From Patescibacteria group bacterium (GTDB lineage Bacteria; Patescibacteriota; Saccharimonadia; CAILAD01; JADZBC01), in the NCBI GenBank assembly GCA_052034495.1, contig JBPOIL010000001.1, positions 84,293-148,292 of the forward strand: a DNA stretch of 64,000 nt, written 5' to 3'. The notes beneath the pieces are model-generated. The model worked only from the letters and a program-made list of their open reading frames with translations. It was not told the DNA's origin and searched no databases. Shown piece by piece: positions 1-36,378 of this stretch. The position numbers were made by a program, and so were the translations under genes. Positions within the stretch are counted from its first letter, which is position 1; the number at the start of each line of letters is the position of its first letter.

Positions 1-1
1 A

Positions 2-1324
2 CTTGTTTATATTGACCCGCCTTACAACACCAAAGGTGCTAACGACATATTTACCTACAATAATAGTTTCAACCACAGTGCGTGGCTAACCTTTATGAAG
101 AACCGTCTTGAAGTAGCCCACGAAATGCTTCGCAACGATGGTTTCATAGCGATAACTATTGACCACGTTGAGTTGTTCTATCTTGGTGCATTGGCAGATG
201 AGGTTTTTGGTGCGGAAAACCGTGTAGGCGTTGTAACTATTCTTATCAACCCAAAGGGGCGTCAGCACGAGAAGTTCTTTTCTGCTTCAACGGAGTATAT
301 GCTCGTCTATGCCAAAGACATTTCAAAGGCACAATTTGAGCAAGTTACTCTTGATGATGAAATTGCCCAAACCTTTGACCAGCAAGACGAACAGGGCAAG
401 TTTAGGTGGCAGTCATTTGCTCGTATTAGAACAAGCACAAGCCGTGAAGCAAAGCCCGCTTTTTATTACCCGATATACGTCAGTCCAGACTTACAGCATA
501 TTACTACTGACAACCTAGATGGTTATACCCCTGTTTACCCTGTATCAAATGGTAAGGATTATAGCTGGAAAACAAAGCCAGATACCTTTGCCGAACGTCT
601 TGCTGATGGTCAATACCGAGCTTATAAAAACGGAAATGGAAACATTGAAATACAGCACAAATATCGTGAACAGCAAGTTCTAAAAAACTTATGGACCGAC
701 AAAAAGTATTTCCCAGAGTTTCAGGGAACAAACCTATTGAAAAAGATAGTAGGCGAAGGTAAGTTCAGTTACCCTAAGTCGCTTTATGCTGTTATGGACA
801 CTATAAAACTTATGTCGTCAGGCGATGATATTGTATTGGACTTTTTCGCTGGTTCAAGTACCACTGGACACGCCGTTCTTGAATTGAACGCAATTGACGG
901 CGGAAACAGGCGGTTTATACTCGCAGAACAAATTGAGAAACATTATGACGTTGGTGTTGAACGAATTACAAAGGTAACGAAGGCACTGGATAGTAACGCT
1001 GAAACAATTTGCTTTGAACTAAAAAAATACAACCAAGAATACCTAGACGCCATTATGGAAGCAACGAGCATAAAGGAACTTGAAGACTTGTATGTTGATA
1101 TGCGTAACAATGCCTTCTTGAAGTTTTGGTTTGACCGAGCCGAGTTTGAGAAAGACGAAAACTTCCGAAGCAAAGATTTAGAAGGTCGCAAACAGGCACT
1201 TGCCGACATACTAGACGAAAACCAACTATACCTCAACTACGCCGATATGAACGATACACGTCATACAGTGTCGTCAGACGAGAAGGCACTAACGGACAAG
1301 TTCTATGGCGAAAACGAAAACTAA
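2..1324 (+). CDS. mod: Type III restriction-modification Mod subunit, N6-adenine DNA methyltransferase; 5' end cut by window edge
   Basis: Frame from nt 2 reads LVYIDPPYNT (the DPPY catalytic motif). Long ORF is 20 nt upstream-overlapped by a DEAH helicase-type res gene. Confidence 0.8.
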   Translation, partial: LVYIDPPYNTKGANDIFTYNNSFNHSAWLTFMKNRLEVAHEMLRNDGFIAITIDHVELFYLGALADEVFGAENRVGVVTILINPKGRQHEKFFSASTEYMLVYAKDISKAQFEQVTLDDEIAQTFDQQDEQGKFRWQSFARIRTSTSREAKPAFYYPIYVSPDLQHITTDNLDGYTPVYPVSNGKDYSWKTKPDTFAERLADGQYRAYKNGNGNIEIQHKYREQQVLKNLWTDKKYFPEFQGTNLLKKIVGEGKFSYPKSLYAVMDTIKLMSSGDDIVLDFFAGSSTTGHAVLELNAIDGGNRRFILAEQIEKHYDVGVERITKVTKALDSNAETICFELKKYNQEYLDAIMEATSIKELEDLYVDMRNNAFLKFWFDRAEFEKDENFRSKDLEGRKQALADILDENQLYLNYADMNDTRHTVSSDEKALTDKFYGENEN

Positions 1325-4133: not shown

Positions 4134-4300
4134 TGAAGCCAATCATATCAGTCAAAGAAGCTCGTAAGTTGCTTGGTAAAGATTATGAAAAGCTGACTGA
4201 CGAGAAGATAGCCGAACTGATTGAGCAACTACACGAACTAGCCAAGTTATCTTTAGATATGGCTCGTGAACAACGCCTCAAAAAACGCTTGGCAAAATGA
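4134..4300 (+). CDS. small hypothetical protein (55 aa) translationally coupled to res
   Basis: ATG overlaps the res stop (TAATG). Basic/helical sequence MKPIISVKEARKLLGKDYEKLTDEKIAELIEQLHELAKLSLDMAREQRLKKRLAK. Below the ORF-track cutoff. Confidence 0.3.
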
Positions 4301-4366
4301 CCCCCAAAAATTCGGCATTTCATATAGCGGAGTGTCAAACAGCGAAACAAAGGGCGACTACCCCCC

Positions 4367-5326
4367 CTATGTTACCTCTGTTGGAACGCCTGTATAGAAG
4401 GCAAGTAAGTCTTCTAAATACTCTTTATTATTGGCATAAGCGTAGTCTTTAGACCAACGCACAAGCAGTAAATTACTTTGAATTATCATCTCCTCGTTTG
4501 TTATAGCGTGTCGTTTCTGCTTTTTACCAGACTTTAGTGGGTCTATAAGTTCAATAAGTATTTCTGGCGTAAGAGCAAAATAGTGTCGTCTTTGGGCTAT
4601 ATGGTTACTGTACATCTTCTCAACCATTGTTTTGCCAGTATTGTTGAACACTTCAACCACTGGCGTATCGGTAGTGATAAACTTCTTTGAGCCTTTAGCC
4701 AGATAGAACCACCATTTCTTTATTACAAACCACCTATGAAACTCTTCGCAATTAGTAATGAGCTGTAAGTGATTGACGTTATTATCAAAAGTCAGTTCAT
4801 ATTCGCCACTTACAAATGTTTTCCTTGCGTCTTCAATCTGTTCATCTGTTACTTGATGTCCTTCTTCTTCCATAGCCTTTTTAGCACCATCGGCAAAGTT
4901 TGGGTGCGTAGCCATTAGTGTAGTGATTTGTTTCATACCGTCAGCCATAGTCTTGTTTATTTGTCTTCGCATATGTGGACTTCTAATCCAAAGGGAAGCC
5001 ATAAACCACGCTAGAATATCTAATTGCTGGTCTGTTAGTGGTCGGTAATTTAGTATAGCGTCAACAATGGCGTCATACTCTTTGGCAAACTTATCTTCAA
5101 TTTCGCCAAAAAATTGCTCAAAGACTTGGCTTGTTTCGTCTTCTTTTCCAGTTTCAACAGCGTAATAAAAATCAGCATAACAAACACCGCTATAAGGTCG
5201 GGGCTTTATGAGTTTGCCTTTTTGAATATCTAAAGTCTGTAACATATTATCAACCGCAAACCGCTTGAAGTAAAAACGAGGTGCGAAATGCTGTTTCTTT
5301 GTTATCTGCTTGGTCATAATTTCCAT
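4367..5326 (-). CDS. DUF4238 family protein (defence-island associated, function unknown)
   Basis: N-terminal KKQHFAPRFYFKRF matches the DUF4238 H-x-P-x-F-Y-L-K-x-F signature. Convergent with the R-M operon. Confidence 0.6.
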   Translation of the reverse strand: MEIMTKQITKKQHFAPRFYFKRFAVDNMLQTLDIQKGKLIKPRPYSGVCYADFYYAVETGKEDETSQVFEQFFGEIEDKFAKEYDAIVDAILNYRPLTDQQLDILAWFMASLWIRSPHMRRQINKTMADGMKQITTLMATHPNFADGAKKAMEEEGHQVTDEQIEDARKTFVSGEYELTFDNNVNHLQLITNCEEFHRWFVIKKWWFYLAKGSKKFITTDTPVVEVFNNTGKTMVEKMYSNHIAQRRHYFALTPEILIELIDPLKSGKKQKRHAITNEEMIIQSNLLLVRWSKDYAYANNKEYLEDLLAFYTGVPTEVT

Positions 5327-5626
5327 TTTACATCTGTATAGGTATGTGTTGAACTGATTGTCTTTCCCAACATTTTATTCCCAACAAGCTGACCACTGTT
5401 AGTGTGTTTGAATTGTTGGGCTATTTTGGAAACAAACGATTTTTTGATACTGACACATTTTTAGGTAGTATGTGCGTTTACGGACTTTCTAAAATATCAA
5501 GGTCAAGGCATAGGGGGGGCTATGCTACGCTAAGCAACAGCCCCTTTATATTACGAACTTCGCTATCGGCATAGCCCATACTTGCCGTTCGCAGTTCGTT
5601 TGCCAGTGCGAGCCAGTAATTATTCA

Positions 5627-5650
5627 AGGAGACCCAAGGGTCTCTTTTTG
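5627..5650 (+). terminator. GC hairpin plus T-run (gagacc-caag-ggtctc-ttttt) immediately upstream of the next CDS; terminator or attenuator
   Basis: Perfect 6-7 bp stem that includes an AGGAG sequence, followed by TTTTTGG. Confidence 0.3.
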
Positions 5651-5657
5651 GTAATAT

Positions 5658-5942
5658 ATGTGCATGAGCAACACCCTAAAGGCAGGTCCTGTACACACGC
5701 TACCATCAGATCTCAAGAAAGCTTTGGTGGCGAGCCCAAAGGCGCAGGTTGCCTGGAATGATATTACGCCGCTCGCCCGCAACGAGTGGATATGCTGGAC
5801 GATTACCGTAAAGAAGCAAGAGACCCGAGACAACCACGTAAAGAGAACAGTCGAAGAGCTTGCCCAGGGTAAGCGCAGGCCTTGCTGCTGGCCTGGCTGT
5901 CCACACCGTAATCCAAAGGCAGCACGATTTATTAAGCCTTAG
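5658..5942 (+). CDS. YdeI/OmpD-associated (OmdA) family protein
   Basis: C-terminal KKQETRDNHVKRTVEELAQGKR resembles the family consensus ...ETR..RI...E.LA.GK. GC is higher than in the neighbouring genes. Confidence 0.5.
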   Translation: MCMSNTLKAGPVHTLPSDLKKALVASPKAQVAWNDITPLARNEWICWTITVKKQETRDNHVKRTVEELAQGKRRPCCWPGCPHRNPKAARFIKP

Positions 5943-5982
5943 CCCAGGTGTTATAATTCGGTTATAAATAGGGAACTATAAG

Positions 5983-6261
5983 ATGGCAAAAGCAGATAAA
6001 AACAGTCCAGAGCTCGAGATCAAGGCTAGTCTAAAAGGCGCAGAAGACTGGAAGGAATGGTGCAAAGAAAAAGGGAATTCTAACGCGAGCACCCATGGCA
6101 CAAGCGGCGCGCTGTACTTTGTAGGCTTCATTGGCTCGCTCGTATACTGGATGCAAGCGGCTACTAACTTTGGCGCTGTTCTAACCGGCTTTTTGAAGTC
6201 TATGGTTTGGCCGGCGTACTTGGTGTACAAAATGCTCGAAACCTTCTACGGTAAAGTTTAG
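5983..6261 (+). CDS. small hypothetical membrane protein
   Basis: 92 aa ORF with a C-terminal hydrophobic segment. Purine-rich sequence sits ahead of the ATG. Confidence 0.4.
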   Translation: MAKADKNSPELEIKASLKGAEDWKEWCKEKGNSNASTHGTSGALYFVGFIGSLVYWMQAATNFGAVLTGFLKSMVWPAYLVYKMLETFYGKV

Positions 6262-21337: not shown

Positions 21338-23128
21338 ATGTTGGGTGCAATCCGTAAACTGTTCGAGCTCGTTGGCCTGATCGCCAAGGAGCCTGGAGGA
21401 GACAAGAAGGTACGACAGGTTAAAAAGGATGCCAAGAAGGCACTCTTTTGGCTGGTCGTTACAGAACTGCTGGAGATCGTTCAGATCTATCCGGTGAAGT
21501 ACTTCGTTGATGGAATCGCCCAGGGCAAGAGTCTCGGCTACCTGCTGAGCATTGTCGGTGTGATGCTGGCCATCGACGTGGTTGTGCGCATTGTTGCCAA
21601 CACGATGAACCATACTCGGCATGTTGCTGCGTGGCATCAGTACGTCATGCTGCTTGGCTTCGGTCAGGCAAAGCAAATGAGCATGGACGTGGCGTGGCAC
21701 CTTGAGCACGGCACAGGCGAAAAGGAATCCTTGATCGCCAAGAACCTCAATCGGATCGACAACTTGACGGATCGAGTCATTTACAACGGCTTGCCCGTGG
21801 TGATTCGGATCGTGTTGACGATTGTGGCTTTGTTCATCTTCGGTCCGGTTTTCGCACTGTTTGGTGTGATTGTGGTTGGGCTGTTCGTGGCTGTCATGGC
21901 CTACAACGGTCGCTACATCAAGCCAATCGACAAGGCCGGCCATCATGCCTGGAAGGACATGCATACTCGCGGGACTGAGCTGTCAGCAAAGTCACGTACT
22001 CTGAAGCAATTCGGGGTCGAAGCGAGCTTTGCGCGGCGCTATCAGTCTGTTCTAGACGGCTATGCCGAAGACGACATTGAACGCAACCGTGCTTGGCGCC
22101 GTTATCAGCGTCGTCCCGAATACGTCCTGATGGCTGCTTTCCTTGGCATGTATGCGTTGCTGGCGCTGTTGCACAACGGAACCGGTGGCGCTGTCACTGT
22201 TGGTACAGTGGTGCTGGTGATTGACTGGTTGAGGCGAATCTTCATCAACCTTTACCAGTTCCGAGATGTGCAGCGAGCCATTTCGGATGGCAGCGAGGCG
22301 CTCAATGAGTACATCGGGCTTTTCAAGACCGTTCCGAGCATTCGACAGCCCGCTACTCCCCAGAAGCCCACTGCGGCAGAGGGGAGGATTGAGCTGCGCT
22401 GCATGGGCTTTACGCATGCTGGTAATTGCGTGCCGACTCTTAAGGAGTTGGATTTGGTCATTGAGCCAAATACCACTATTGCGCTGGTTGGTCCCTCTGG
22501 GGCTGGCAAGTCAACGGTGGCCGCACTGCTGGCACGTGAGGCTGATCCGACCGAAGGGGAGATTCTCTTTGACGGCATTAGCTTGCGGCAGTTTGACTAC
22601 GACTACCTGCGCCAGCAGATGGTTACGGTCGTGTCGCAAGACGTGCAGCTGATCGATGGCAGCATCGCTGACAACATTCGCATGGGCAATGCCCTGGCAA
22701 GTGACGAAGCGGTGCACCAGGCTGCGCAGCGCGCTCATGCAGATGAGTTCATTGCCAGGCTGCCACACGGCTATGCCAGCCAGGTGGGCGAGAATGGCGT
22801 GCGGCTGTCAGGCGGACAGAGGCAGCGCGTGGCGATTGCCCGGGCTCTTCTGCGCAACCCCAAACTGTTGATCCTGGACGAGGCTACGAGCGCGCTCGAT
22901 GCACGCTCGCAAGACTTCGTGAAGGCGACGGTGGACGAGATGATTCAGTCTCGTCAGGCCACCATTGTGGTCATTGCTCACCGCTTGAGCACCGTGGAGT
23001 CGGCCGACGTGGTCTACTACATGGAAGACGGCCGTATTGTTGAGCATGGCGCTCACGCAGAGCTTTTGGCTCAAGGTGGCCGTTACGCCGAGATGGTGGC
23101 GCGTGAGATTGGAGAGCATTTGGACTGA
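21338..23128 (+). CDS. ABC transporter, fused permease/ATP-binding exporter
   Basis: Walker A GPSGAGKST, ABC signature LSGGQRQRVAIARAL, Walker B LLILDEATSALD, N-terminal TM domain. GC clearly above the window average. Confidence 0.85.
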   Translation: MLGAIRKLFELVGLIAKEPGGDKKVRQVKKDAKKALFWLVVTELLEIVQIYPVKYFVDGIAQGKSLGYLLSIVGVMLAIDVVVRIVANTMNHTRHVAAWHQYVMLLGFGQAKQMSMDVAWHLEHGTGEKESLIAKNLNRIDNLTDRVIYNGLPVVIRIVLTIVALFIFGPVFALFGVIVVGLFVAVMAYNGRYIKPIDKAGHHAWKDMHTRGTELSAKSRTLKQFGVEASFARRYQSVLDGYAEDDIERNRAWRRYQRRPEYVLMAAFLGMYALLALLHNGTGGAVTVGTVVLVIDWLRRIFINLYQFRDVQRAISDGSEALNEYIGLFKTVPSIRQPATPQKPTAAEGRIELRCMGFTHAGNCVPTLKELDLVIEPNTTIALVGPSGAGKSTVAALLAREADPTEGEILFDGISLRQFDYDYLRQQMVTVVSQDVQLIDGSIADNIRMGNALASDEAVHQAAQRAHADEFIARLPHGYASQVGENGVRLSGGQRQRVAIARALLRNPKLLILDEATSALDARSQDFVKATVDEMIQSRQATIVVIAHRLSTVESADVVYYMEDGRIVEHGAHAELLAQGGRYAEMVAREIGEHLD

Positions 23129-23317
23129 CATAGAAAGGAGGGTGACGGCGGGACGCGGGTGAATAACCTTGCGCCCCGCCTATCCCAAGTTGATAAGCCG
23201 AGAGGGGCTCTGACGTACTTTATAACGACATAGTAAAGAATTCAGAGTCCCTTCCGGCAGAGCAACAAGGCTCTCCGGCCCGCACGTTGGCGGGTTAGTT
23301 CGAAAGGGCGTACGTGT

Positions 23318-23863
23318 ATGTACGGACCAGTTATTGAAGGGGCAAAGTGCAAGCTTCGGCCTCATGTTGAGAAGGATGCCCATCTGTTCGTGCAGATGTT
23401 GGCCGACCCGGAGGTGAACAGGTACCTCTCGATGCAGTCGCCACCGAGCATCAGGTCTGAGCTGGAGTGGATCGAGGCACGCGCCAAGGATCCGCGGACC
23501 CTCGGCTGGACTATCGAGGTCGAGGGCAAGTGCGTCGGCTACGTTGGCGTAGACGCCATTAATTGGCGCAATGGCCACGGAACGGTTGGCATCTTCATCG
23601 GCCGCTCAGACCTGTGGGGCAAGGGCATCACGACCGAGGTTGCCCAGCTGGTGGCGCGCTATGTGTTCACCCAGACACCTCTGCGCAAGATCAAGGCCGG
23701 CTACCTGGCCCCCAATGTGGCGTCAGCCAAGGCCCAGGCTCGGATTGGCCTACGTGAGGTTGGCCGTTGGCACGCCGAGTATTTCCGCGATGGCCAGTGG
23801 GTCGACCATGTGTTGACCGAGCTGACCCGCGAGGAGTGGGTGGCAGCCCAGCTGAGTCGGTAG
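23318..23863 (+). CDS. GNAT family N-acetyltransferase (RimJ/RimL-like)
   Basis: GWTIEVEGKCVGYVGVDAINWRNGHGTVGIFIG...GKGITTEV. GC-rich. Confidence 0.65.
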   Translation: MYGPVIEGAKCKLRPHVEKDAHLFVQMLADPEVNRYLSMQSPPSIRSELEWIEARAKDPRTLGWTIEVEGKCVGYVGVDAINWRNGHGTVGIFIGRSDLWGKGITTEVAQLVARYVFTQTPLRKIKAGYLAPNVASAKAQARIGLREVGRWHAEYFRDGQWVDHVLTELTREEWVAAQLSR

Positions 23864-29470: not shown

Positions 29471-29546
29471 GGGCCCGTAGCTCAGTGGTTAGAGCAGTCG
29501 GCTCATAACCGATTGGTCGCTGGTTCAAATCCAGCCGGGCCCACCA
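29471..29546 (+). tRNA. tRNA with CAT anticodon; sequence closely resembles E. coli tRNA-Ile2 (lysidine; ileX) rather than tRNA-Met
   Basis: GGGCCCGTAGCTCAGTGGTTAGAGCAGTCGGCTCATAACCGATTGGTCGCTGGTTCAAATCCAGCCGGGCCCACCA. Cloverleaf with anticodon loop CTCATAA. Encoded CCA. Confidence 0.85.
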
Positions 29547-29590
29547 AGCATAAGCATTATAGATGAAGACTCCGAAAGGGGTCTTTTGTT
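29538..29590 (+). repeat. repeat A: tRNA 3' end (ggcccacca) plus 44 bp downstream including GNRA-loop terminator hairpin; duplicated at 30573-30625
   Basis: 53-bp direct repeat, about 90% identical to the copy at 30573..30625. Confidence 0.7.
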
Positions 29591-29927
29591 GTTATGTTTG
29601 AAATTGTGCAGGATTCAACTTATCATCAGGGTTGATGGTAGCGCCCTGCTGCCCGTACCGATGGAGGACACGATGGCTACCGACGCGAGTGGTTACGACC
29701 ACCTGAACGAAGACACCCCAATAGTGCTCGAGCTTGGAGGAGTGCGGGTGTCGTTGGTAGGGAAAGACCACATGGCCAAGTTGGTCTCAGCCGTTCTTCG
29801 TTCGAACTACGGGATGAACCGCTTCCTTGCAGAGCTCCTTTCCCAGCTCCCTTCCAGAGAGCACCTTTCGCCTGAGGAGCTGAAGCTTCTGGAGGACATA
29901 CGGGCCTACTTCTCAGCCCGGGGCTGA
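29586..29927 (+). CDS. hypothetical protein in GC-elevated cassette (likely start ATG 29661, MEDTMATD...)
   Basis: ORF of about 88-113 aa, roughly 58% GC, followed by a hairpin plus T-run at about 29975-30008. Confidence 0.4.
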   Translation: MLLCLKLCRIQLIIRVDGSALLPVPMEDTMATDASGYDHLNEDTPIVLELGGVRVSLVGKDHMAKLVSAVLRSNYGMNRFLAELLSQLPSREHLSPEELKLLEDIRAYFSARG

Positions 29928-30093
29928 TGCGCTACAGCGCAGATGATGGGGTGAGGCAACAGGGCCCACCCCAGAGCGACTTAGAATCATCTAGGTCGCT
30001 TTTTCGTTATTGACTCTTTATCGGGACAGGTATAGAATTTCACCAACACCTACCAACCGGTTCGTGTTAAGGCCAAATACAAGGGGGAAATCC

Positions 30094-30426
30094 GTGGCCA
30101 TCTTCCCGAGCATGACGCTCAAGTCGGTCAACCGTGTTCGTGTCGCACGTGGCGCCCCGCCGCTCAAGAAGCTGCGGAAGGGCGACCGTCGCAACCAGCA
30201 CATCTGTGCCATCGCCAACTCGCTCAGCGACGTGGCTCCCGGCATCAAGGTGCACAAGCGCCGCATCTCCGGGGTGGACCAGGAGTTCGCGGAGCTCATC
30301 GCCCGCGAGTTCGGCACCCACCTCGACCCGAGCAAGGAGACGCCCCAGGTGGTGATGCCGCTGCACATGCAGGGCTTCGTGTTCGCCTACGACCGAGGCG
30401 CCTACGACGAGCTCGCTCGCACCTGA
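30094..30426 (+). CDS. hypothetical protein, very GC-rich (~65% GC) cassette gene; start uncertain (GTG 30094 after AAGGGGG, ATG 30112, or TTG 30010)
   Basis: Strong GC3 bias picks this frame over the five overlapping ORFs. Translation ...MTLKSVNRVRVARGAPPLKKLRKGDRRNQHICAIANSLSDVAPGIKVHKRRISGVDQEFAELIAREFGTHLD... Confidence 0.45.
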   Translation: MAIFPSMTLKSVNRVRVARGAPPLKKLRKGDRRNQHICAIANSLSDVAPGIKVHKRRISGVDQEFAELIAREFGTHLDPSKETPQVVMPLHMQGFVFAYDRGAYDELART

Positions 30427-30430
30427 CCCA

Positions 30431-30524
30431 TCCATGTCCTGCGCGCATAGCAATACTGCGCAGCGTCTGCCAGACGATACCTGGCATCACCCAAGTTCAT
30501 GAATGTGATTCGTGAGTTTAGGTG
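30431..30524 (+). repeat. repeat C: structured ~95-bp element (stems ctgcgc/gcgcag, cgtctg/cagacg, tgccag/ctggca; ttcatgaa palindrome) directly after the cassette stop
   Basis: Homologous to repeat D at 31166-31288, with compensatory stem changes. Confidence 0.6.
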
Positions 30525-30572
30525 AGATTACCTCCGCTAGAGCTTGCAGATGGTTACAAGTGAGTCCAGTAA

Positions 30573-30625
30573 GGCCCACCAAGCATAAGAATTATAGATA
30601 AAGAATCCGCAAGGGGTCTTTTGTT
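30573..30625 (+). repeat. repeat B: second copy of the tRNA(CAT) 3' end plus downstream 44 bp (att-like remnant)
   Basis: ggcccaccaagcataagaattatagataaagaatccgcaaggggtcttttgtt compared with 29538-29590. Confidence 0.7.
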
Positions 30626-30648
30626 ATGCTTGATATCATTATCACGAA

Positions 30649-31155
30649 GTGTCATTATATGCCCACGAAGCAAACAATAGCTTCACGACCATAGGGGGTT
30701 CGTTGAAAACGCAGTCCTTGCAGTTCCACTTCGTTGGAAACCACTTGCTCGATGGCGGAGAGTACATCCTCTTCCTCATCCCAATCGTTGCCCTGCTGAC
30801 CGGAGTCGGTCTCCTCGTCGACGACAGAAAGAAGCATGCCGACAAGGTGCTCGTGTGCGCCCTCGTCTTCTTCTTCGGTCTCTTCATAGCGATGCACAAC
30901 AGCGGCGCTCACTACGACGTTCAGTACGTCAAGGGAGAGCTGGAGTCACAGGGGCTAAACGTTGTGAGGAGCAACGTCACAGGGGATGACAAGAACGACA
31001 ACACGGTCACCTTCGGCAACGGCGGGTGTGAGCTCGGTGACTTCAAGTTCTACTACGAGAAGGGCACCGTGCGTGCCTACGTCCGCCGAGGTGAGTACGA
31101 TGTGCTCATCACCCCGCAGCTCCTCGAGCGCATGTGCGCGTCTACCGGCGGCTGA
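30649..31155 (+). CDS. hypothetical membrane protein, very GC-rich cassette gene (2 TM segments plus soluble C-terminal domain); N-terminus/start uncertain
   Basis: GC3 about 85% in this frame from about 30740 on. TM segments ILFLIPIVALLTGVGLLV and VLVCALVFFFGLFIAM. The leader resembles that of the 30094 gene. Confidence 0.45.
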   Translation: MSLYAHEANNSFTTIGGSLKTQSLQFHFVGNHLLDGGEYILFLIPIVALLTGVGLLVDDRKKHADKVLVCALVFFFGLFIAMHNSGAHYDVQYVKGELESQGLNVVRSNVTGDDKNDNTVTFGNGGCELGDFKFYYEKGTVRAYVRRGEYDVLITPQLLERMCASTGG

Positions 31156-31165
31156 CCGCGTCGCC

Positions 31166-31288
31166 AACCATGTCCTGCACGCATCGCAATACTGTGCAGC
31201 GTTCGCCAGAACGATACTCTGGCGGGTGGGAGCTTCCGAGCTCCTGCCGTCACCCAAGTTCATGAATAGGATTCGTGAGTTTAGGTGA
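31166..31288 (+). repeat. repeat D: second copy of the structured element (stems ctgcac/gtgcag, cgttc/gaacg, gccag/ctggc; extra ggagct-tccg-agctcc hairpin)
   Basis: Shares ccatgtcctgc(g/a)cgcat(a/c)gcaatactg(c/t)gcagcg... and tcacccaagttcatgaat..gattcgtgagtttaggtga with repeat C. Confidence 0.6.
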
Positions 31289-31324
31289 AGCCGTCGTATC
31301 TTCTTGTGTGGTAGCATATAGTCT

Positions 31325-31765
31325 ATGAATCAACATCTGTCAGACGAAGAGTATCAAGCGGTCTATTCAAAAGTTCCTAGGCTGAATGTCGAGTTGGTTA
31401 TTATGGAGCGAGGAAAAGTTCTCCTCTCGAAGAGAGTAATAGAGCCTTGGCAGGGGCATTGGCACTTGCCAGGTGGCCGTGTCCTGATGAATGAAACCCT
31501 GGAAGAGGCAGTGGCCAGGATAGGAAGACTAGAACTTGGGCTTGAGGTAAAAGCAGTAGACGTCCTCGGCTCAATCACATATCCGAGCATAAAAGGCCAG
31601 CCCAAGGATTTTGAGTGGCCTATAGGAGTTGTTTATAGCGCGGATGTTTTGAAAGGAGAGATAAAAGGCTGGGAGTTAGCCCCTAGAGTCGAGTGGTTTA
31701 GCGAGCTGCCCAGACCAATAATTGAAGAGCAAAAGACTTTCCTCCTCGACAGAGCCTTGTTTTAG
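31325..31765 (+). CDS. NUDIX hydrolase
   Basis: GHWHLPGGRVLMNETLEEAVARIGRLELGL Nudix box. Confidence 0.7.
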   Translation: MNQHLSDEEYQAVYSKVPRLNVELVIMERGKVLLSKRVIEPWQGHWHLPGGRVLMNETLEEAVARIGRLELGLEVKAVDVLGSITYPSIKGQPKDFEWPIGVVYSADVLKGEIKGWELAPRVEWFSELPRPIIEEQKTFLLDRALF

Positions 31766-31834
31766 TATCCTAGGCGAGACTACTGCCGACCTTCTATAGC
31801 CCATTGCATATAAAATCATAAAAGCTAGCATAGT

Positions 31835-32248
31835 GTGATGCGCAGGAGTATTACACAGAAAAGAGAATATGGCTGTGGTGTGGCCTGCTTTGCGTTTGCT
31901 ACCAATATGGGCTACCACGAAGCCGAGAACCATCTTGGCAAGGACATCGTAGAGAGGCATGAGTTTAGAGGCGTCATCATGAACAGGCTGCTAAATGAAT
32001 ACGGCCTGGAATATCGAAAGAGGTACACAGGGGCGGGCTGGAGGCCAAAGAAATACCCTAATGGCACAATCGCCTACATTTACGCGAGCGCTACGCACCC
32101 TCACGGGCATTACTTGATTCGACACAATGGTGCATGGATGGATCCATGGATCAATATGAGGGATGATCGTAGAATTCGGTTTGCTAGATCGGGCTACAGA
32201 CCAAAACTACCAGGTAAGCCTATGTTTTTGCTGCTACCAATTACTTGA
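31835..32248 (+). CDS. papain-like cysteine peptidase, C39-like domain protein
   Basis: GCGVACFAFATNMGY (Cys nucleophile motif as in the C39 CGxAxL motif). Downstream HYLIRHNG His. Confidence 0.5.
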   Translation: MMRRSITQKREYGCGVACFAFATNMGYHEAENHLGKDIVERHEFRGVIMNRLLNEYGLEYRKRYTGAGWRPKKYPNGTIAYIYASATHPHGHYLIRHNGAWMDPWINMRDDRRIRFARSGYRPKLPGKPMFLLLPIT

Positions 32249-32283
32249 ACTAGTGTGCGCTTAGTGGTACGATAAAACACTTT

Positions 32284-33063
32284 ATGAAGATTATTACGTT
32301 AAACATTTGGGGCGGGCGAGTGCTTGAGCCACTCTTGGAATTCTTTAAGACTAAGGCCCAAGAAGCTGACGTTATTTGCTTGCAAGAAGTCTTTGCTTCG
32401 GGCTTGGAGCTAGAGGACGTTGATGTTTGTACAAACATGCTGGATAGACTGCTGCCGATAATGCAGGACTATAGATTCGTTTACAATTCCAATGTGGTGG
32501 ACAGGCTGACTTCGCAGATCGAGGGCAGCGATTTACGTTATGGCAACGCTATTTTTGTGCGTAAATCTCTCAGGCTACGCGGTAGTCAGAATCAGTTTAT
32601 CGTAAAATACCCCGGTGACGTTTATGATCTGGAAGCAGGTGATGATCATCCGCGAGCCCTGCAAATCGTGCAGCTTTCCGATGAGTACGGGAATAACTTT
32701 TCTGTAGCGAACTACCATGGCTATTGGAGTAACGGTCCCAAGACTGACGACGAAGTGCGCCTTGAGCAGTCAGTGCGTATTCGTGAAGTGCTTGATGGGC
32801 TGAATGAGCCATTTGTACTTTGTGGCGACTTTAACTTGCTACCAACCACCAAAAGCCTAGATATCCTACGGGATGGCCTAAGCGACATGGTTCAAAAGTA
32901 CAAGTTATCAACTACTCGGTCGCCCTTATATAAGCGCATAGACTATGCGCCGTTTGCCGACTACATGTTTACTACCCCAGAGGTGCGCGACAAGAGCTTC
33001 CGAGCCCTGGACGACGTAGTTTCTGACCACTTGGCGTTAGAGCTCGACTTCGACCTGGTATAA
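32284..33063 (+). CDS. endonuclease/exonuclease/phosphatase (EEP) family protein
   Basis: N-terminal MKIITLNIWGG. C-terminal SDHLALELDFD. Confidence 0.7.
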   Translation: MKIITLNIWGGRVLEPLLEFFKTKAQEADVICLQEVFASGLELEDVDVCTNMLDRLLPIMQDYRFVYNSNVVDRLTSQIEGSDLRYGNAIFVRKSLRLRGSQNQFIVKYPGDVYDLEAGDDHPRALQIVQLSDEYGNNFSVANYHGYWSNGPKTDDEVRLEQSVRIREVLDGLNEPFVLCGDFNLLPTTKSLDILRDGLSDMVQKYKLSTTRSPLYKRIDYAPFADYMFTTPEVRDKSFRALDDVVSDHLALELDFDLV

Positions 33064-33089
33064 TGGAATAGATAAGTGGAGCTAAGGAA

Positions 33090-33908
33090 ATGACGATGCC
33101 AATTGATTTAGTGCTCGTTCGGCACGGACAGTCAGAGCAAAACCTAGCATCACACTTTGCCAAGAATGGCGACCCTAGCCTGTATACCGAGGAGTTCAGG
33201 AAGCGTCACGGCGGACAGCACAGGCTTACGGCCAAAGGCCGAAGTCAGGCAGAAGCAGCAGGTAAATGGCTGCGAAAAAATGATTTAGCGTACTTTGATC
33301 GTCGCTACGTTTCGGCCTACGTGCGCGCTATGGAGACTGCAGGCCTACTGAGCCTTGACGGCCCTGACTGGATGGTAGACCCATTGCTGCGTGAGCGAGA
33401 GTGGGGGGATTTTGATAACATTCCCCATGATGAGCGCGTGGCAAAATCTGAAGAATCAATGGAGATGCGAGACACCGATCCGTTCTTTTGGATACCGCCG
33501 AACGGCGAATCAGTTGCTCAACTAACAGTTCGACTTCGTTCGGTTCTAGATACTCTGCATAGGGAGTGCACGGATCGCAGGGTCGTGATTGTGTGTCACG
33601 GCGAGGTCATGTCGGCCTTCCGGTTCCTACTGGAGCGAATGAGTATCGACAGATGGGCGCAGTTGCAAAAGTCCAAGGAACCAGGCGAGAAGATATTCAA
33701 CTGCCAAGTGTTCCATTACACTCGTCGCAATCCAGATTCGAGTGAACTTTCTCCTCACCTGGATTGGATGCGCTCGATCAGTCCCGCCGACGAGTCAAAC
33801 AGCGGTGACGGCTGGCAGAAAATTACGCGCAAGCGATTCTCTAATAACGAACTACTGGAAGCTGCCGACCAGGTGGGTCATTTATTCCCAGAGCGGGAAG
33901 GCTATTAG
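33090..33908 (+). CDS. histidine phosphatase family protein (phosphoglycerate mutase-like)
   Basis: LVRHGQSEQN RHG motif. Second His in CHGEVM. Confidence 0.7.
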   Translation: MTMPIDLVLVRHGQSEQNLASHFAKNGDPSLYTEEFRKRHGGQHRLTAKGRSQAEAAGKWLRKNDLAYFDRRYVSAYVRAMETAGLLSLDGPDWMVDPLLREREWGDFDNIPHDERVAKSEESMEMRDTDPFFWIPPNGESVAQLTVRLRSVLDTLHRECTDRRVVIVCHGEVMSAFRFLLERMSIDRWAQLQKSKEPGEKIFNCQVFHYTRRNPDSSELSPHLDWMRSISPADESNSGDGWQKITRKRFSNNELLEAADQVGHLFPEREGY

Positions 33909-33909
33909 T

Positions 33910-34335
33910 ATGACGCACTGGTTACTCGTAAGCTCACCAGATAACTTTGAGACGTCTCGCGCTCGTGGGTTCGACATAGCTGGCATGAAGACGCGCTGGC
34001 GCAAGGCGGCCGGGGAAGTTCAAGTAGGAGACACAGTATTCTTTTACCTTACGGGGCTCAAGTCGATCGGTGGGGAAGCAGTCGTAACAGGGCCTGCCTA
34101 CGAAGACTTTGAGAAGATTTGGGAGTCCACTAAGCCCGACGAAGTCTATCCGCACCGCTTTCCAATCAAAATTTCCAAAGCCAGACCCAAAGGGGACTAC
34201 TTAAAAGTAGAAGACTTTTTAGACCAATACGAATACGCCAGGCGCTGGCCAGTTAAGAACTGGACATTGGCGTTCCAGGGTAATGCCCACAGGCTGAACG
34301 AAGCTGACTACCAGCTGATTCACGATCTAATCTAG
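33910..34335 (+). CDS. EVE (PUA-like) domain protein
   Basis: MTHWLLVSSPDNFE... GDTVFFYLTG pattern typical of EVE domains. The ORF-track start at 33742 overlaps the previous gene; ATG at 33910 is preferred. Confidence 0.55.
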   Translation: MTHWLLVSSPDNFETSRARGFDIAGMKTRWRKAAGEVQVGDTVFFYLTGLKSIGGEAVVTGPAYEDFEKIWESTKPDEVYPHRFPIKISKARPKGDYLKVEDFLDQYEYARRWPVKNWTLAFQGNAHRLNEADYQLIHDLI

Positions 34336-35510
34336 CGCACGACTGCTGCCCGCCGGCCAGCTTTGCCCTGATATTTGCCGTCCTCGTGAACGGCTTGTTC
34401 TTGGTGTCCCCAGAACGTTGGGTCGAATGGGGTGTACATGCTGTGCCCGCCCTTGATTACGCCATCGCTGTGAATGCCTGATCGGTGTACGTTGGTATCG
34501 CGACCGACTACCGGTGCCTGTCGGTCTACCGCTAGACCTGCAGCGCCCATGACACTTTTAGCAGTAGTTACGCTGGTCTCAGGACTAAATTGCCATTCGA
34601 TCTCTGCATCTAAGTCGCTAGCAAACTTAAAGAGGTTGCTCGCCACCGTGAACACGTCGGCATTGCCCGCGCGTTCTCCTAGGCCACAAACAGTTGCTTC
34701 GACTTGTACCGTTATGTCTTTCCCGGATCGCTTAACATATTCGCTGGCTGCACGAACAAGCATGAAGCTATTAGTAGCAGCATTTCCTAGATCGTTGTGA
34801 TTGTGTGCCGATATCGTGGCCTGGTCATCTGCGCTAGTTACCCAAGATATTACATCGCGGTAGAAGTCTAGCATCCATATCGGATCTCGTTCGCCAACAG
34901 TATCAGGGACATTAATGATGTCTGCCCCCGCCCGGATGGCAGCTTCTATGACTTGCTTTAGGTATGTAGGCTCTGTAGTGCTAGCTGCTTCGGCCGAAAA
35001 CTCTATGCTCGCTCCAGGGTGTGCTGCGGATACTTGCTTGGCGTAGCTAACGGCATCCGTGGCGATGACTACCAACTCATCACGAGATACGCCAGGGAAC
35101 TTGTTCTGACGATGAAAGTCACTCGTGGAAACAAACGTATGGATACGGGGATACTTGGCCGCACTTACTGCCTGCCATGTCGCATCAATGTCCGAATGCA
35201 CGGCCCTAGAGAGACCAGCAATGACCGGTGTGAACTGGGTTTCGCAGCTAGTACCTGCGGTACTCCAGGTGGAGGTCTTAAAGCTAGCTTGCCCAACTGA
35301 CTTGGCCACGGCCATGACTTCGGCGGCGTCTTCGGGTGTTGCCGGGAATCCAGCCTCTATCACCCCGATCCCTAGCCGGGCTATTGCATCGGCAATTTTA
35401 GTCTTGCTGCCATTTGGGAACTGATGACTGGCGGGTAGTGACTGGGCGCCATCGCGCAGGGTGGTATCGAAGAAATGAACTCTTACTTTTGGCATAATTA
35501 TAAACTCCAA
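34332..35510 (-). CDS. DRE-TIM metallolyase, 2-isopropylmalate/homocitrate/citramalate synthase family (short)
   Basis: FFDTTLRDGAQS and HNHNDLGNAATNS motifs. Confidence 0.65.
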   Translation of the reverse strand: MEFIIMPKVRVHFFDTTLRDGAQSLPASHQFPNGSKTKIADAIARLGIGVIEAGFPATPEDAAEVMAVAKSVGQASFKTSTWSTAGTSCETQFTPVIAGLSRAVHSDIDATWQAVSAAKYPRIHTFVSTSDFHRQNKFPGVSRDELVVIATDAVSYAKQVSAAHPGASIEFSAEAASTTEPTYLKQVIEAAIRAGADIINVPDTVGERDPIWMLDFYRDVISWVTSADDQATISAHNHNDLGNAATNSFMLVRAASEYVKRSGKDITVQVEATVCGLGERAGNADVFTVASNLFKFASDLDAEIEWQFSPETSVTTAKSVMGAAGLAVDRQAPVVGRDTNVHRSGIHSDGVIKGGHSMYTPFDPTFWGHQEQAVHEDGKYQGKAGRRAAVVR

Positions 35511-35702
35511 TTAAAAACGCTTCGTGTGGTGAAGCGCTTCTTGTTGAGCTGTGCCTACCCGCAATTAAGCGGAGAGTGCTTCACCATTGTCAAAGCACAG
35601 CCCGATAAGGCCGAGGAGGAGGATAGCTTGCTTTGGTTGGCGAATATTCATGAAGCCATTATAACTGCTGGGTGCAAGAACACAAAATTCCTCATCGAGG
35701 CT

Positions 35703-36107
35703 ATGCTACAATTGAACCATATGCGCGGACGAATCAACTTCTCACGGATAGCATTTTGGCTTGGCCTTGGCATGGTCATATACATATTCTTTATGTTGAT
35801 TGGCGAGGGGGGCAAGAGCTATAGGCTGCGCAATCAGGCTGATAAGATTAATGTGGAAATCAGTCAGCTTCAAGAGCAAACAGAGCTCCTTGAGTATAAG
35901 ATAGCCTATTATACGACAGATGTTTACAAAGAGCGCTTGGCAAGGGAGAAGCTGGACTTACAGTATGCAGGAGAATCGGTAGTTATCGTTCGCGGTTCAA
36001 AGCCCGAGCGCACAAAATCATCTTTGCAGCTCAACCAGACTGAGGAGGCTTTGCCGGCATCTAACTTTCAGGCTTGGCTAGAGTTCCTATTTGGGAATAA
36101 GCGGTGA
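35703..36107 (+). CDS. septum formation initiator (FtsB/DivIC-like) protein
   Basis: TM helix followed by a coiled coil NQADKINVEISQLQEQTELLEYKIAYY...YKERLAREKLDL. The ORF-track start at 35475 is probably too far upstream. Confidence 0.55.
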   Translation: MLQLNHMRGRINFSRIAFWLGLGMVIYIFFMLIGEGGKSYRLRNQADKINVEISQLQEQTELLEYKIAYYTTDVYKERLAREKLDLQYAGESVVIVRGSKPERTKSSLQLNQTEEALPASNFQAWLEFLFGNKR

Positions 36108-36159
36108 GGCCGCACTTGATTTATTGAGCTTAAAGCAGTACAATATTGAATGCTGATAG

Positions 36160-36236
<77 letters not shown>

Positions 36237-36301: not shown

Positions 36302-36378
36302 GGCTGAGTAGCTCAGTTGGTTAGAGCGCGGGACTCATAAGCCCGAGGTCGGTGGTTCAATCCCACCCTCAGCCACCA
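36302..36378 (+). tRNA. elongator tRNA-Met (CAT)
   Basis: GGCTGAGTAGCTCAGTTGGTTAGAGCGCGGGACTCATAAGCCCGAGGTCGGTGGTTCAATCCCACCCTCAGCCACCA, similar to E. coli metT. Confidence 0.85.

What the first reader, a model, noticed from the sequence alone, without database searches (positions are those of the whole stretch)
29640..31160. Cargo ORFs with Actinobacteria-like composition (>60% GC, GC3 about 85%) embedded in a ~49% GC genome; possible host-derived DNA
Segments 30120-30426 and 30740-31155 run about 65% GC with extreme third-position G/C bias, and 29640-29927 is about 58% GC. This is unlike every housekeeping gene in the window. Each GC-rich body is spliced onto a low-GC leader carrying the RBS and start, so the genes look like chimeras of native 5' ends and foreign coding sequence. 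If the organism is a Saccharibacteria-type epibiont (an inference from gene content), Actinobacteria are the usual hosts and high-GC DNA at a capture hotspot would fit host-to-symbiont transfer. Products are unknown: one soluble ~100-aa protein, one 2-TM protein with a soluble C-terminal domain, one ~88-aa protein.
Basis: partly seen in the sequence, partly recalled or inferred. Interest (0 to 1): 0.65.

Follow-up and report, generated by a model that had tools for sequence, protein, structure and literature searches.

The report
Strain-variable gene-cassette array beside a tRNA
The three GC-rich small genes are real accessory genes in a fast-changing array of one-gene cassettes stacked behind a tRNA gene and separated by decayed copies of that tRNA's end; nothing shows that they were taken from an actinobacterial host chromosome.

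Summary
The composition anomaly is real but uneven. GC3 is 0.69 for ORF1, 0.90 for ORF2 and 0.81 for ORF3, against 0.525 +/- 0.045 for background genes. Only ORF2 exceeds 60% GC.

The ORFs sit directly 3' of tRNA(CAU) 29471-29546 in an array of self-contained cassettes. Each has a terminator hairpin, a promoter-like site, an RBS and an ORF. Junctions consist of a decayed copy of the tRNA's last ~35 nt plus a conserved ~50-nt tail. ORF2 and ORF3 are each followed by a conserved three-hairpin module.

Between the same flanking genes, related strains carry entirely different cargo, with GC3 from 0.38 to 0.90. Cassettes are far more similar between lineages than core genes are (ORF2 dS 0.24 versus 0.56 to saturation). 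Four independent assemblies reproduce the junctions, so this is not a chimera.

The best reading is tandem accretion of integrase-less elements at a tRNA, then shuffling by homologous recombination. No recombinase was found.

ORF1 and ORF3 have no homologues outside this lineage. ORF2 belongs to an uncharacterised ~110-aa family with a confident model, no known fold relative, and a distant relative in Streptomyces phage Hiyaa. Host-chromosome origin is unsupported. A high-GC mobile or phage gene pool is plausible.

The parts
29471..29546 (+). tRNA with anticodon CAT, the anchor of the array. ARAGORN calls it Met. From memory it resembles E. coli ileX, so it may be tRNA-Ile2; this was not tested.
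   Evidence: ARAGORN; Rfam tRNA, 76.7 bits
29547..29597 (+). Junction tail, copy 1 (AGCATAAGCATTAT, hairpin GACTCCGAAAGGGGTC, T-run). Read as the element-derived arm of attL. It contains the terminator-like hairpin 29565-29586.
   Evidence: 61-nt direct repeat D1, 29530-29590 and 30565-30625, 89% identical. Pattern found twice, 0 expected by chance. nhmmer model J. Terminator scan.
29598..29626 (+). Promoter-like site of cassette 1 (TTGAAA, 17 nt, TATCAT)
29673..29927 (+). ORF1, 84 aa, GC3 0.69, preceded by RBS GGAGG. No homologue outside this strain.
29948..30038 (+). Upstream module of ORF2: hairpin GGGGTG...CACCCC, terminator-like hairpin 29973-30002, and promoter-like site 30010-30038 (TTGACT, 17 nt, TAGAAT). 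The same module precedes ORF2 homologues and DUF6886 genes in relatives. Its GGGCCCACC is part of the hairpin, not a tRNA scar.
30094..30426 (+). ORF2, 110 aa, GC 0.66, GC3 0.90, GTG start after RBS AAGGGGGA. Member of an uncharacterised ~110-aa family with invariant Cys38 and Asp100.
30428..30529 (+). Module X, copy 1: three hairpins. Includes repeats D3 (30428-30474) and D2 (30480-30525); D2 is a 38-nt imperfect palindrome. It starts right after the ORF2 stop codon.
30547..30581 (+). Decayed copy of the tRNA 3' part (AGATGGTTACAAGTGAGTCCAGTAAGGCCCACCA), read as an att scar
30582..30702 (+). Junction tail, copy 2, followed by the ORF3 leader. Contains hairpin 30602-30619, promoter-like site 30630-30658 and RBS GGGGG 30694-30698. 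The leader is shared with an unrelated gene in L016/L030.
30703..31155 (+). ORF3, about 150 aa from TTG 30703; the mechanical ORF starts at GTG 30649. GC3 0.81. Two predicted TM helices plus a C-terminal domain. No homologue outside this lineage.
31164..31290 (+). Module X, copy 2, carrying a 27-nt extra hairpin. The tRNA-like scar that should follow it is missing here.
31289..31777 (+). NUDIX gene insertion (ORF 31325-31765). Absent at this position in L015. Flanked by TAGGTGA (31282-31288) and TAGGCGA (31771-31777).

Best explanation
The GC-rich ORFs are accessory genes in a strain-variable array of miniature, self-contained gene cassettes stacked directly 3' of a tRNA(CAU) gene.

Anatomy. 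Each unit has a terminator hairpin, a sigma-70-like promoter, an RBS and one or two ORFs. Units are separated by junctions made of a decayed copy of the last ~35-40 nt of the tRNA followed by a conserved ~50-nt tail. ORF2 and ORF3 are each followed by a conserved ~100-125-nt three-hairpin module (X).

Mechanism (inferred). This is the scar pattern of repeated site-specific integration of circular elements into the tRNA 3' end:
- attL is the tRNA plus the element arm, which is the tail.
- Each internal junction is element arm X, then the displaced tRNA 3' copy, then the tail of the older element.

This is tandem accretion of elements that carry no integrase of their own, like cis-mobilizable elements. 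The recombinase would be supplied in trans from elsewhere in the genome or from a phage.

Spread (shown). Once in place, cassettes and their conserved junctions are exchanged among strains by homologous recombination.

Composition (inferred). The high GC3 reflects a mobile gene pool of higher GC than the chromosome. For ORF2 that pool has remote relatives in Streptomyces phages.

Status of each step:
- Shown: the anatomy, the hypervariability, the excess similarity of cassettes, and the independent assemblies.
- Inferred: integrase-mediated origin, supply of the recombinase in trans, and a high-GC donor pool.
For: Anatomy:
- tRNA at 29471-29546.
- A 61-nt repeat of the tRNA 3' end plus tail, and two copies each of D2 and D3, none expected by chance.
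- One promoter-like site per cassette, and terminator-like hairpins before ORF1 and ORF2.
- tRNA-like scars aligned to the tRNA 3' half in the window, L005, L015, L012 and L030.
- In L005 the last junction is X, then the tRNA 3' copy, then unrelated flank. That is what attR should look like.

Hypervariability between the same flanking genes:
- window: ORF1, ORF2, ORF3, NUDIX, 137-aa gene
- L005: 459-aa methyltransferase-like gene, MOSC, ORF2
- L012: GIY-YIG, 151-aa gene, DUF6886
- L015: 298-aa gene, ORF3
- L016: membrane-protein gene, DUF6886
- L030: at least five cassettes

Mobility:
- ORF2 dS is 0.24 between the window and L005, while five neighbouring genes give 0.56 to saturation.
- The ORF3 cassette is 97.8% identical to L015, against 87-92% for the flanks.
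- Window and L003 are 100% identical over 30422-33063 and 85-88% beyond. L003 has a different GC-rich ORF upstream of X1.

Genes are real:
- ORF2 dN/dS is 0.42.
- ORF2 has a 35-member family and an AF2 model with pLDDT 96.

Related system: a second lineage (L026) has the same tail joined to copies of a different tRNA-like 3' end.

Precedent: tandem islands bounded by repeats of a tRNA or tmRNA 3' end, including integrase-less units, are described in PMC3146451 and PMC5704250.
Against: - No tyrosine or serine recombinase was found in any array or among the 30 window ORFs scanned with Pfam. The rest of the genome was not available.
- No circular form or empty site was observed.
- The right end of the window's array lacks the expected final tRNA 3' copy.
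- In L026 the junction elements also flank an aminoacyl-tRNA synthetase gene and no intact tRNA is present. The junction could therefore be a general intergenic repeat.
- In L015/L016 the tRNA is followed by only the distal part of the tail.
- dS for ORF2 is underestimated to some extent, because GC3 near 0.9 restricts synonymous change.
Confidence: 0.55

Rival explanations
1. One reading: DNA taken directly from a high-GC actinobacterial host chromosome was captured at the hotspot and fused to native 5' ends.
For: - GC3 is 0.69-0.90, and GC1 is also raised: 0.66 for ORF2, above the top of the window's range.
- ORF3's leader is shared with an unrelated coding body, and homology ends at the RBS.
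- ORF2 has a remote relative in Streptomyces phages.
Against: - No actinobacterial or any other outside homologue was found for ORF1 or ORF3 among 5.8 billion clusters.
- ORF2's near relatives are only syntenic strains.
- Closer ORF2-family members lie in 45-57% GC contigs.
- ORF2's leader co-travels with the gene even at 42% protein identity.
- Cargo at the same hotspot ranges down to GC3 0.38.
- A resident syntenic GNAT keeps GC3 0.67-0.77 across lineages whose dS is saturated, so high GC3 alone does not mark recent import.
- The organism's identity and its host are untested.
Confidence: 0.1
2. A hotspot driven only by homologous recombination, like the 'minimal mobile elements' of Neisseria (recalled from memory). 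Whole cassettes are swapped by DNA uptake and recombination between conserved flanks and junctions. The tRNA-like repeats arise by local duplication, with no site-specific recombinase involved.
For: - A 100% identity tract 30422-33063 lies inside 85-88% flanks.
- The conserved junction, leader and X modules could serve as homology arms.
- No recombinase was found.
Against: - Homologous recombination moves existing cassettes. It does not explain how unrelated genes come to lie between copies of the tRNA 3' end.
- The L005 layout (tRNA plus tail ... X plus tRNA copy plus unrelated flank) matches attL/attR exactly.
- The GIY-YIG unit in L012 is bounded by a precise 12-nt repeat of the tRNA end.
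Confidence: 0.2
3. The GC3 excess is produced locally, by GC-biased gene conversion or selection at a recombination hotspot, in genes that are native to the lineage.
For: - The locus is a demonstrated recombination hotspot.
- The excess is strongest at third codon positions.
- The ORFs occur only in this lineage.
Against: - Low-GC cassettes (GC3 0.38-0.46) sit in the same arrays next to GC-rich ones.
- The non-coding junctions in the same tracts are 42-51% GC.
- GC1 of ORF1 and ORF2 is raised as well.
Confidence: 0.08
4. Assembly chimera or contaminant contig.
For: Contigs in several assemblies break at the tRNA or at X.
Against: - L001 (DRR438528) spans 29489-36198 at 99.9% identity.
- L009 and L002 (SRR34217545) together cover tRNA, ORF1, ORF2, X1, ORF3 and the flank.
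- L003 and L015 carry the ORF3 cassette joined to the same right flank.
Confidence: 0.01

Closest known systems
Tandem genomic islands at the 3' end of a tRNA or tmRNA gene, including integrase-less cis-mobilizable elements (CIMEs). Examples: Dehalococcoides ssrA islands (PMC3146451) and ICE/IME/CIME accretion in streptococci (PMC5704250).
   Same: - Anchored at the 3' end of a small RNA gene.
- Units bounded by direct repeats of that 3' end.
- Extra conservation around the repeat.
- Strain-specific cargo.
- Some units lack any integration gene.
   Different: - Units here are 0.4-1.5 kb with one or two genes, against several kb to tens of kb.
- No unit in any array seen carries an integrase or integration module.
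- Each unit has its own promoter and terminator.
- Some units have a conserved three-hairpin 3' module.
Integron gene-cassette arrays
   Same: - Arrays of mostly single-ORF units of unknown function.
- Order and content differ between close strains.
- A conserved structured element follows the ORF.
- The recombinase is not encoded in the cassettes.
   Different: - No intI was found.
- Cassettes carry their own promoters.
- The recombination core is a tRNA 3' end rather than attI/attC.
- X does not show the R''-L''/L'-R' layout on inspection (no attC model was available to run).
Hypervariable genomic islands of Prochlorococcus, with repeated tRNA 3' ends, and Neisseria minimal mobile elements. 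Both are recalled from memory and were not checked in the library.
   Same: - Flexible islets lie between conserved flanking genes and differ among close strains.
- In Prochlorococcus, repeats of a tRNA 3' end inside the island are taken as traces of repeated integration.
   Different: - Those islands are much larger, or lack internal att-like repeats (the Neisseria elements).
- No conserved cassette arms have been described for them.
gp83 of Streptomyces phage Hiyaa and its homologues in phages Spocter and Keanu (hypothetical proteins)
   Same: - Same length (108 aa).
- Shares the Cys motif and the C-terminal P-x-x-L-x-x-F-x-x-F-D-x-G-x-Y-P-E-L motif with the ORF2 family.
- hhalign probability 94.6%; top Foldseek hit in BFVD.
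   Different: - Only about 19-30% identity over 73 columns.
- Function unknown.
- Says nothing about ORF1 or ORF3.

Membership tests
tRNA-anchored tandem integrative elements / CIME-type accretion | Located immediately 3' of a tRNA or tmRNA gene | tested here: met
   The tRNA ends at 29546 and the array begins at 29547.
tRNA-anchored tandem integrative elements / CIME-type accretion | Units bounded by direct repeats of the tRNA 3' end (attL/attR) | tested here: met
   - 17 nt of tRNA end plus 44 nt repeated at 30565-30625.
- tRNA-like 3' halves at junctions in L005, L012, L015 and L030.
- The final attR copy is missing in the window itself.
tRNA-anchored tandem integrative elements / CIME-type accretion | A cognate site-specific recombinase somewhere in the genome or on a helper element | tested here: inconclusive
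   None was found among 30 window ORFs or in any array gene scanned with Pfam. The rest of the genome and its phages could not be searched.
tRNA-anchored tandem integrative elements / CIME-type accretion | Excision to a circle and re-integration | not testable with these tools
   This needs read-level data or an experiment.
tRNA-anchored tandem integrative elements / CIME-type accretion | Presence/absence polymorphism among close strains, with the same unit in different neighbourhoods | tested here: met
   - The ORF3 cassette follows ORF2 in the window and a 298-aa gene in L015.
- The ORF2 unit follows ORF1, MOSC or a 119-aa gene.
Integron | intI integrase gene with attI and Pc next to the array | tested here: not met
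   No integrase is present. The neighbours are a 65-aa ORF, a bactofilin-like gene and LexA upstream, and NUDIX downstream.
Integron | attC site after each cassette (imperfect palindrome with R''/L''-L'/R' cores) | tested here: inconclusive
   X ends in a 38-nt imperfect palindrome, but its arms do not fit RYYYAAC/GTTRRRY on inspection. No attC covariance model was available.
Integron | Mostly promoterless cassettes expressed from Pc | tested here: not met
   Each cassette has its own promoter-like site, and terminator-like hairpins precede ORF1 and ORF2.
Recent transfer from Actinobacteria | Closest homologues are actinobacterial | tested here: not met
   - ORF1 and ORF3 match only themselves.
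- ORF2 matches itself plus a syntenic relative.
- In the full HMMER search the next relatives are 42% identical or less. Those looked up lie in contigs of 45-65% GC and unknown taxon.
Recent transfer from Actinobacteria | Donor-like composition | tested here: inconclusive
   GC3 of 0.69-0.90 and raised GC1 fit any donor of about 60-67% GC. No reference genomes were available for a codon-usage match.
ORF2 / Hiyaa gp83-like small protein family (uncharacterised) | About 110 aa with conserved N13, R16, G20, C38, A41, P89, F95, F99 and D100 | tested here: met
   Alignment A2 of 33 members; 35 hits at E < 1e-3; AF2 pLDDT 96.

The most novel reading that the evidence does not exclude
This may be a dedicated, integron-like gene-capture system of small-genome bacteria. 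One-gene circular cassettes would carry a conserved two-arm attachment site (three-hairpin X, tRNA-like core, tail). A trans-acting recombinase would insert them serially at a tRNA 3' end. Sister systems would target other tRNAs (L026), and the cassette pool would be partly shared with phages of high-GC bacteria.
Probability: 0.2. Interest if true: 0.75.

Novelty: new variant of a known kind. Interest (0 to 1): 0.45.

Why it matters
If the organism is a reduced-genome epibiont, this locus is one of the few places where its gene content turns over quickly. The array is compact and sequence-defined, and its conserved junctions could serve as PCR or probe targets. That would allow tracking of which accessory genes such cells exchange, and testing whether a trans-acting recombinase drives the exchange. 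The locus also corrects a tempting inference: high GC3 at a hotspot is not by itself evidence of host-to-symbiont transfer. Separately, ORF2 defines an uncharacterised small-protein family with a confident predicted fold, no solved relative, and members in Streptomyces phages.

Tried and rejected
RNA and DNA searches that found nothing:
- Rfam on the region and on the whole window: only tRNAs.
- D2 pattern scans: IMG/VR 0, GTDB species representatives 0, JGI metagenomes 2 chance hits inside coding sequence.
- The search for related loci with the bactofilin-like neighbour in genome contigs: nothing. The organism could therefore not be named.
- Paper search for the sample and assembly accessions: nothing.
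- The listing of cluster members returned no taxon names.
- blastn of the array against phages and plasmids: no match.

Protein searches that found nothing:
- Pfam, PHROGs and PADLOC on the three ORFs and on cargo from relatives: no informative hit.
- tblastn of ORF1, ORF2, ORF3, P0051 and P0055 against phages: no significant match.
- The search for related loci in IMG/VR with ORF2, P0051 and P0050: nothing.
- PHROGs on neighbours of distant ORF2 homologues (L028, L029): inconclusive. Their 'phage-like' look is only an impression from gene layout.

Leads rejected:
- A weak crAss-like phage hit (E = 0.05) lies inside a giant protein and is not recognised by the family HMM, so it is spurious.
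- I first took GGGCCCACC at 29962-29970 for a third tRNA scar. It is part of a conserved hairpin in the ORF2 upstream module, which is also present in L025 with a different sequence.

Structure work that led nowhere:
- ORF3 single-sequence AF2 model: pLDDT 49, unusable.

Tools unavailable:
- The afdb50 fold library was not on the machine.
- Alignment A2 was too diverse for a collection scan.
Full report
OBSERVATION.

The window is 49.3% GC. The third, given as about 65%, was overestimated.

With the most likely start codons:
- ORF1 (29673-29927, 84 aa) has GC3 0.69.
- ORF2 (30094-30426, 110 aa) has GC3 0.90.
- ORF3 (30703-31155, about 150 aa) has GC3 0.81.

Fifty-three background ORFs have GC3 0.525 +/- 0.045, maximum 0.607. 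In 646 windows of 85 codons from those genes the maximum is 0.706. The anomaly is therefore real and far beyond chance for ORF2 and ORF3, and at the extreme tail for ORF1.

Two caveats apply. Only ORF2 exceeds 60% GC. The ABC transporter 21338-23128 (GC3 0.67) and the GNAT 23318-23863 (GC3 0.77) are also GC-rich, yet they are syntenic residents in relatives. The GNAT keeps GC3 0.67-0.77 in two lineages whose synonymous sites are saturated. High GC3 alone therefore does not prove recent import in this genome.

ANATOMY.

A tRNA with anticodon CAT lies at 29471-29546. Its last 17 nt plus the next 44 nt recur at 30565-30625 with 89% identity (0 copies expected by chance).

After the stop codons of ORF2 and ORF3 lies a conserved module X, at 30428-30529 and 31164-31290. 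It folds into three hairpins (four in copy 2). Two base pairs change on both sides between the two sequence types. Several G-U pairs form only on the + strand. It matches no Rfam family.

Each ORF is preceded by a promoter-like site:
- ORF1: terminator-like hairpin 29565-29586, promoter-like site 29598-29626.
- ORF2: terminator-like hairpin 29973-30002, promoter-like site 30010-30038.
- ORF3: promoter-like site 30630-30658.

The 'low-GC leaders' are thus promoter, 5'UTR and terminator sequence. The 30649 GTG start of the mechanical ORF3 would lie inside its own promoter. TTG 30703, after RBS GGGGG, is the likelier start (inference).

Aligned with the tRNA, the segment 30547-30581 and the corresponding junctions in relatives are decayed copies of the tRNA from about the anticodon stem to the CCA end.

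NOT AN ASSEMBLY ARTEFACT.

- A Logan contig from DRR438528 matches 29489-36198 at 99.9%.
- Two contigs from SRR34217545 cover the tRNA, ORF1, ORF2 and X1, and then X1 onward, at 100%.
- SRR12712864 and a JGI contig carry the ORF3 cassette joined to the same right flank.

COMPARATIVE EVIDENCE: A HYPERVARIABLE CASSETTE ARRAY.

The 65-aa protein just upstream of the tRNA is identical in many strains. Looking it up, together with the one ORF2 relative, returned syntenic loci in which the stretch between this tRNA and the Exo_endo_phos gene holds different genes:
- window: ORF1, ORF2, ORF3, NUDIX, 137-aa gene.
- L005: 459-aa methyltransferase-like gene, MOSC, ORF2 homologue.
- L012: GIY-YIG, 151-aa gene, a non-coding stretch, DUF6886.
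- L015: 298-aa gene, ORF3.
- L016: small membrane-protein gene, DUF6886.
- L030: at least five units.

Cargo GC3 spans 0.38 to 0.90.

Junctions of the same kind (tRNA-like 3' copy plus tail AGCATAAGCATTAT, hairpin, T-run) separate the units.

L005 shows the textbook layout. The tRNA is followed by the tail. Internal junctions follow. The array ends with X, then a tRNA 3' copy, then unrelated flank. That is attL ... attR.

In L012 a GIY-YIG gene is bounded by an exact 12-nt repeat of the tRNA end.

A more distant lineage (L026) has the same tail attached to copies of a different tRNA-like 3' end. There the junctions also flank an aminoacyl-tRNA synthetase gene, and no intact tRNA is present. 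This is the main observation that does not fit a simple att-scar reading.

MOBILITY.

Between the window and L005, five neighbouring genes show dS of 0.56 to saturation, while ORF2 shows dS 0.24 with dN/dS 0.42. The skewed GC3 lowers the apparent dS somewhat. Even so, the raw synonymous difference is 0.21, against 0.40-0.88 for the neighbouring genes.

The ORF3 cassette is 97.8% identical to L015, against 87-92% for the flanks.

Window and L003 are identical from 30422 to 33063 and only 85-88% identical beyond 33090. Upstream of X1, L003 carries a different GC-rich ORF end.

Cassettes therefore move between lineages, and recombination tracts end at the conserved modules.

LEADERS.

ORF3's leader, from the distal part of the tail to the RBS, is shared with an unrelated GC-rich membrane-protein gene in L016 and L030. 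Homology stops at the RBS.

ORF2 behaves differently. Its upstream hairpin, terminator, promoter and 5'UTR accompany the gene in L005 and L030, and in a homologue of 42% identity in L025.

WHAT THE GENES ARE.

None of the three ORFs matches Pfam, PHROGs or PADLOC. In 5.8 billion protein clusters, ORF1 and ORF3 find only themselves. ORF2 finds itself and the L005-type relative.

A full HMMER search of 1.84 billion cluster representatives gives 35 relatives of ORF2 at E < 1e-3. Most are 103-129 aa and 28-42% identical. The aligned family has invariant Cys38 and Asp100.

Against predicted viral structures, the top hit is a 108-aa protein of Streptomyces phage Hiyaa (E = 0.018, probability 0.98, TM about 0.48). 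Three further results support that hit:
- The family HMM independently picks the same protein, gp83, from the phage's six-frame translation (E about 1e-4 for that small search).
- hhalign gives 94.6% probability over 73 columns, including the Cys and the C-terminal FD-G-YPEL motif.
- Homologues occur in Streptomyces phages Spocter and Keanu.

This is a remote relationship. It shows that the family exists in high-GC phages, not that ORF2 came from one.

Other family members lie in contigs of 45-65% GC and unknown origin.

MECHANISM.

The best-supported account is tandem accretion at a tRNA 3' end of small elements that lack their own integrase, followed by homologous exchange among strains.

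Precedents are the tandem islands at Dehalococcoides ssrA, bounded by 20-bp repeats with extra conserved sequence around them and including integrase-less units (PMC3146451), and CIME accretion (PMC5704250).

What differs here:
- The units are miniature (0.4-1.5 kb).
- Each has its own promoter-like site.
- Some have the conserved X arm.
- No integration gene appears in any array seen.

No recombinase was found among 30 window ORFs or among the array genes. The recombinase step is therefore inference. I put the whole account at 0.55.

Rivals:
- Homologous recombination only: 0.2.
- Direct transfer from a host chromosome: 0.1.
- A local GC-biasing process: 0.08.
- Mis-assembly: 0.01.

VERDICT.

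- The compositional observation is largely right.
- The 'cargo at a capture hotspot' idea is strongly supported.
- The Actinobacteria-host origin is not supported. At most it is replaced by a hint of a high-GC phage or mobile gene pool for one of the three genes.
- The Saccharibacteria assignment could not be tested here. A sortase, Flp-type pilin in relatives, and the general gene content are compatible with it but not diagnostic.

I rate this a new variant of a known kind, with interest 0.45.

Noticed in passing
L012 6376-6733; L005 7230-7669: Small GIY-YIG genes (105 and 88 aa) are inserted at the hotspot tRNA in relatives. The L012 copy sits after the CCA end and is bounded by an exact 12-nt repeat, CCGGGCCCACCA. 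The L005 copy sits inside the 5' part and duplicates GGGCCCGTAGCTC, so an intact tRNA is kept.
   Followed up: partly
window 30428-30529 and 31164-31290: Module X is a conserved three-hairpin element right after the stop codons of ORF2 and ORF3. Two base pairs change on both sides between the two sequence types. Its G-U pairs form only on the + strand. It has no Rfam match. It could be a 3'UTR RNA structure or a single-strand recombination site. Only about three distinct sequences are available.
   Followed up: partly
window 21338-23863: The ABC transporter (GC3 0.67) and the GNAT acetyltransferase (GC3 0.77) form a second GC-rich patch. Both are syntenic in relatives, and the GNAT stays GC-rich across saturated divergence.
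   Followed up: partly
window 31282-31777: The NUDIX gene is an insertion relative to L015. It is flanked by TAGGTGA and TAGGCGA, placed just after X copy 2.
   Followed up: partly
window 30422-33063 versus L003: The window is 100% identical to a strain that is 85-88% identical beyond 33090 and has different cargo upstream of 30422. This is a recent recombination tract whose left edge lies at the X1 module.
   Followed up: yes
window 30640-30700; L016 440-490; L030 330-379: The leader shared by ORF3 and an unrelated membrane-protein gene contains repeated CACGAA motifs. It may be a common regulatory 5'UTR or operator.
   Followed up: no
window 1-6000: A low-GC stretch (41-43%) holds a DNA methylase, a type III restriction helicase subunit (ResIII) and a DUF4238 gene. 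It is probably a separately acquired restriction-modification island.
   Followed up: no
window about 33063-33090; L004 3934-4922; L007 3229-3786; L012 10185-10696: A second variable spot lies between the Exo_endo_phos and His_Phos_1 genes. Relatives carry extra small ORFs there, while the window has none.
   Followed up: no
L012 7330-7670: A GC-rich stretch of about 340 nt, with no called gene, lies between two cassettes.
   Followed up: no
window 29471-29546, 36160-36236, 36302-36378: There are three tRNAs with anticodon CAT. From memory, the hotspot tRNA closely resembles E. coli ileX (tRNA-Ile2, lysidine). The other two look like initiator and elongator Met. This was not tested.
   Followed up: no
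[not shown]
   Followed up: partly
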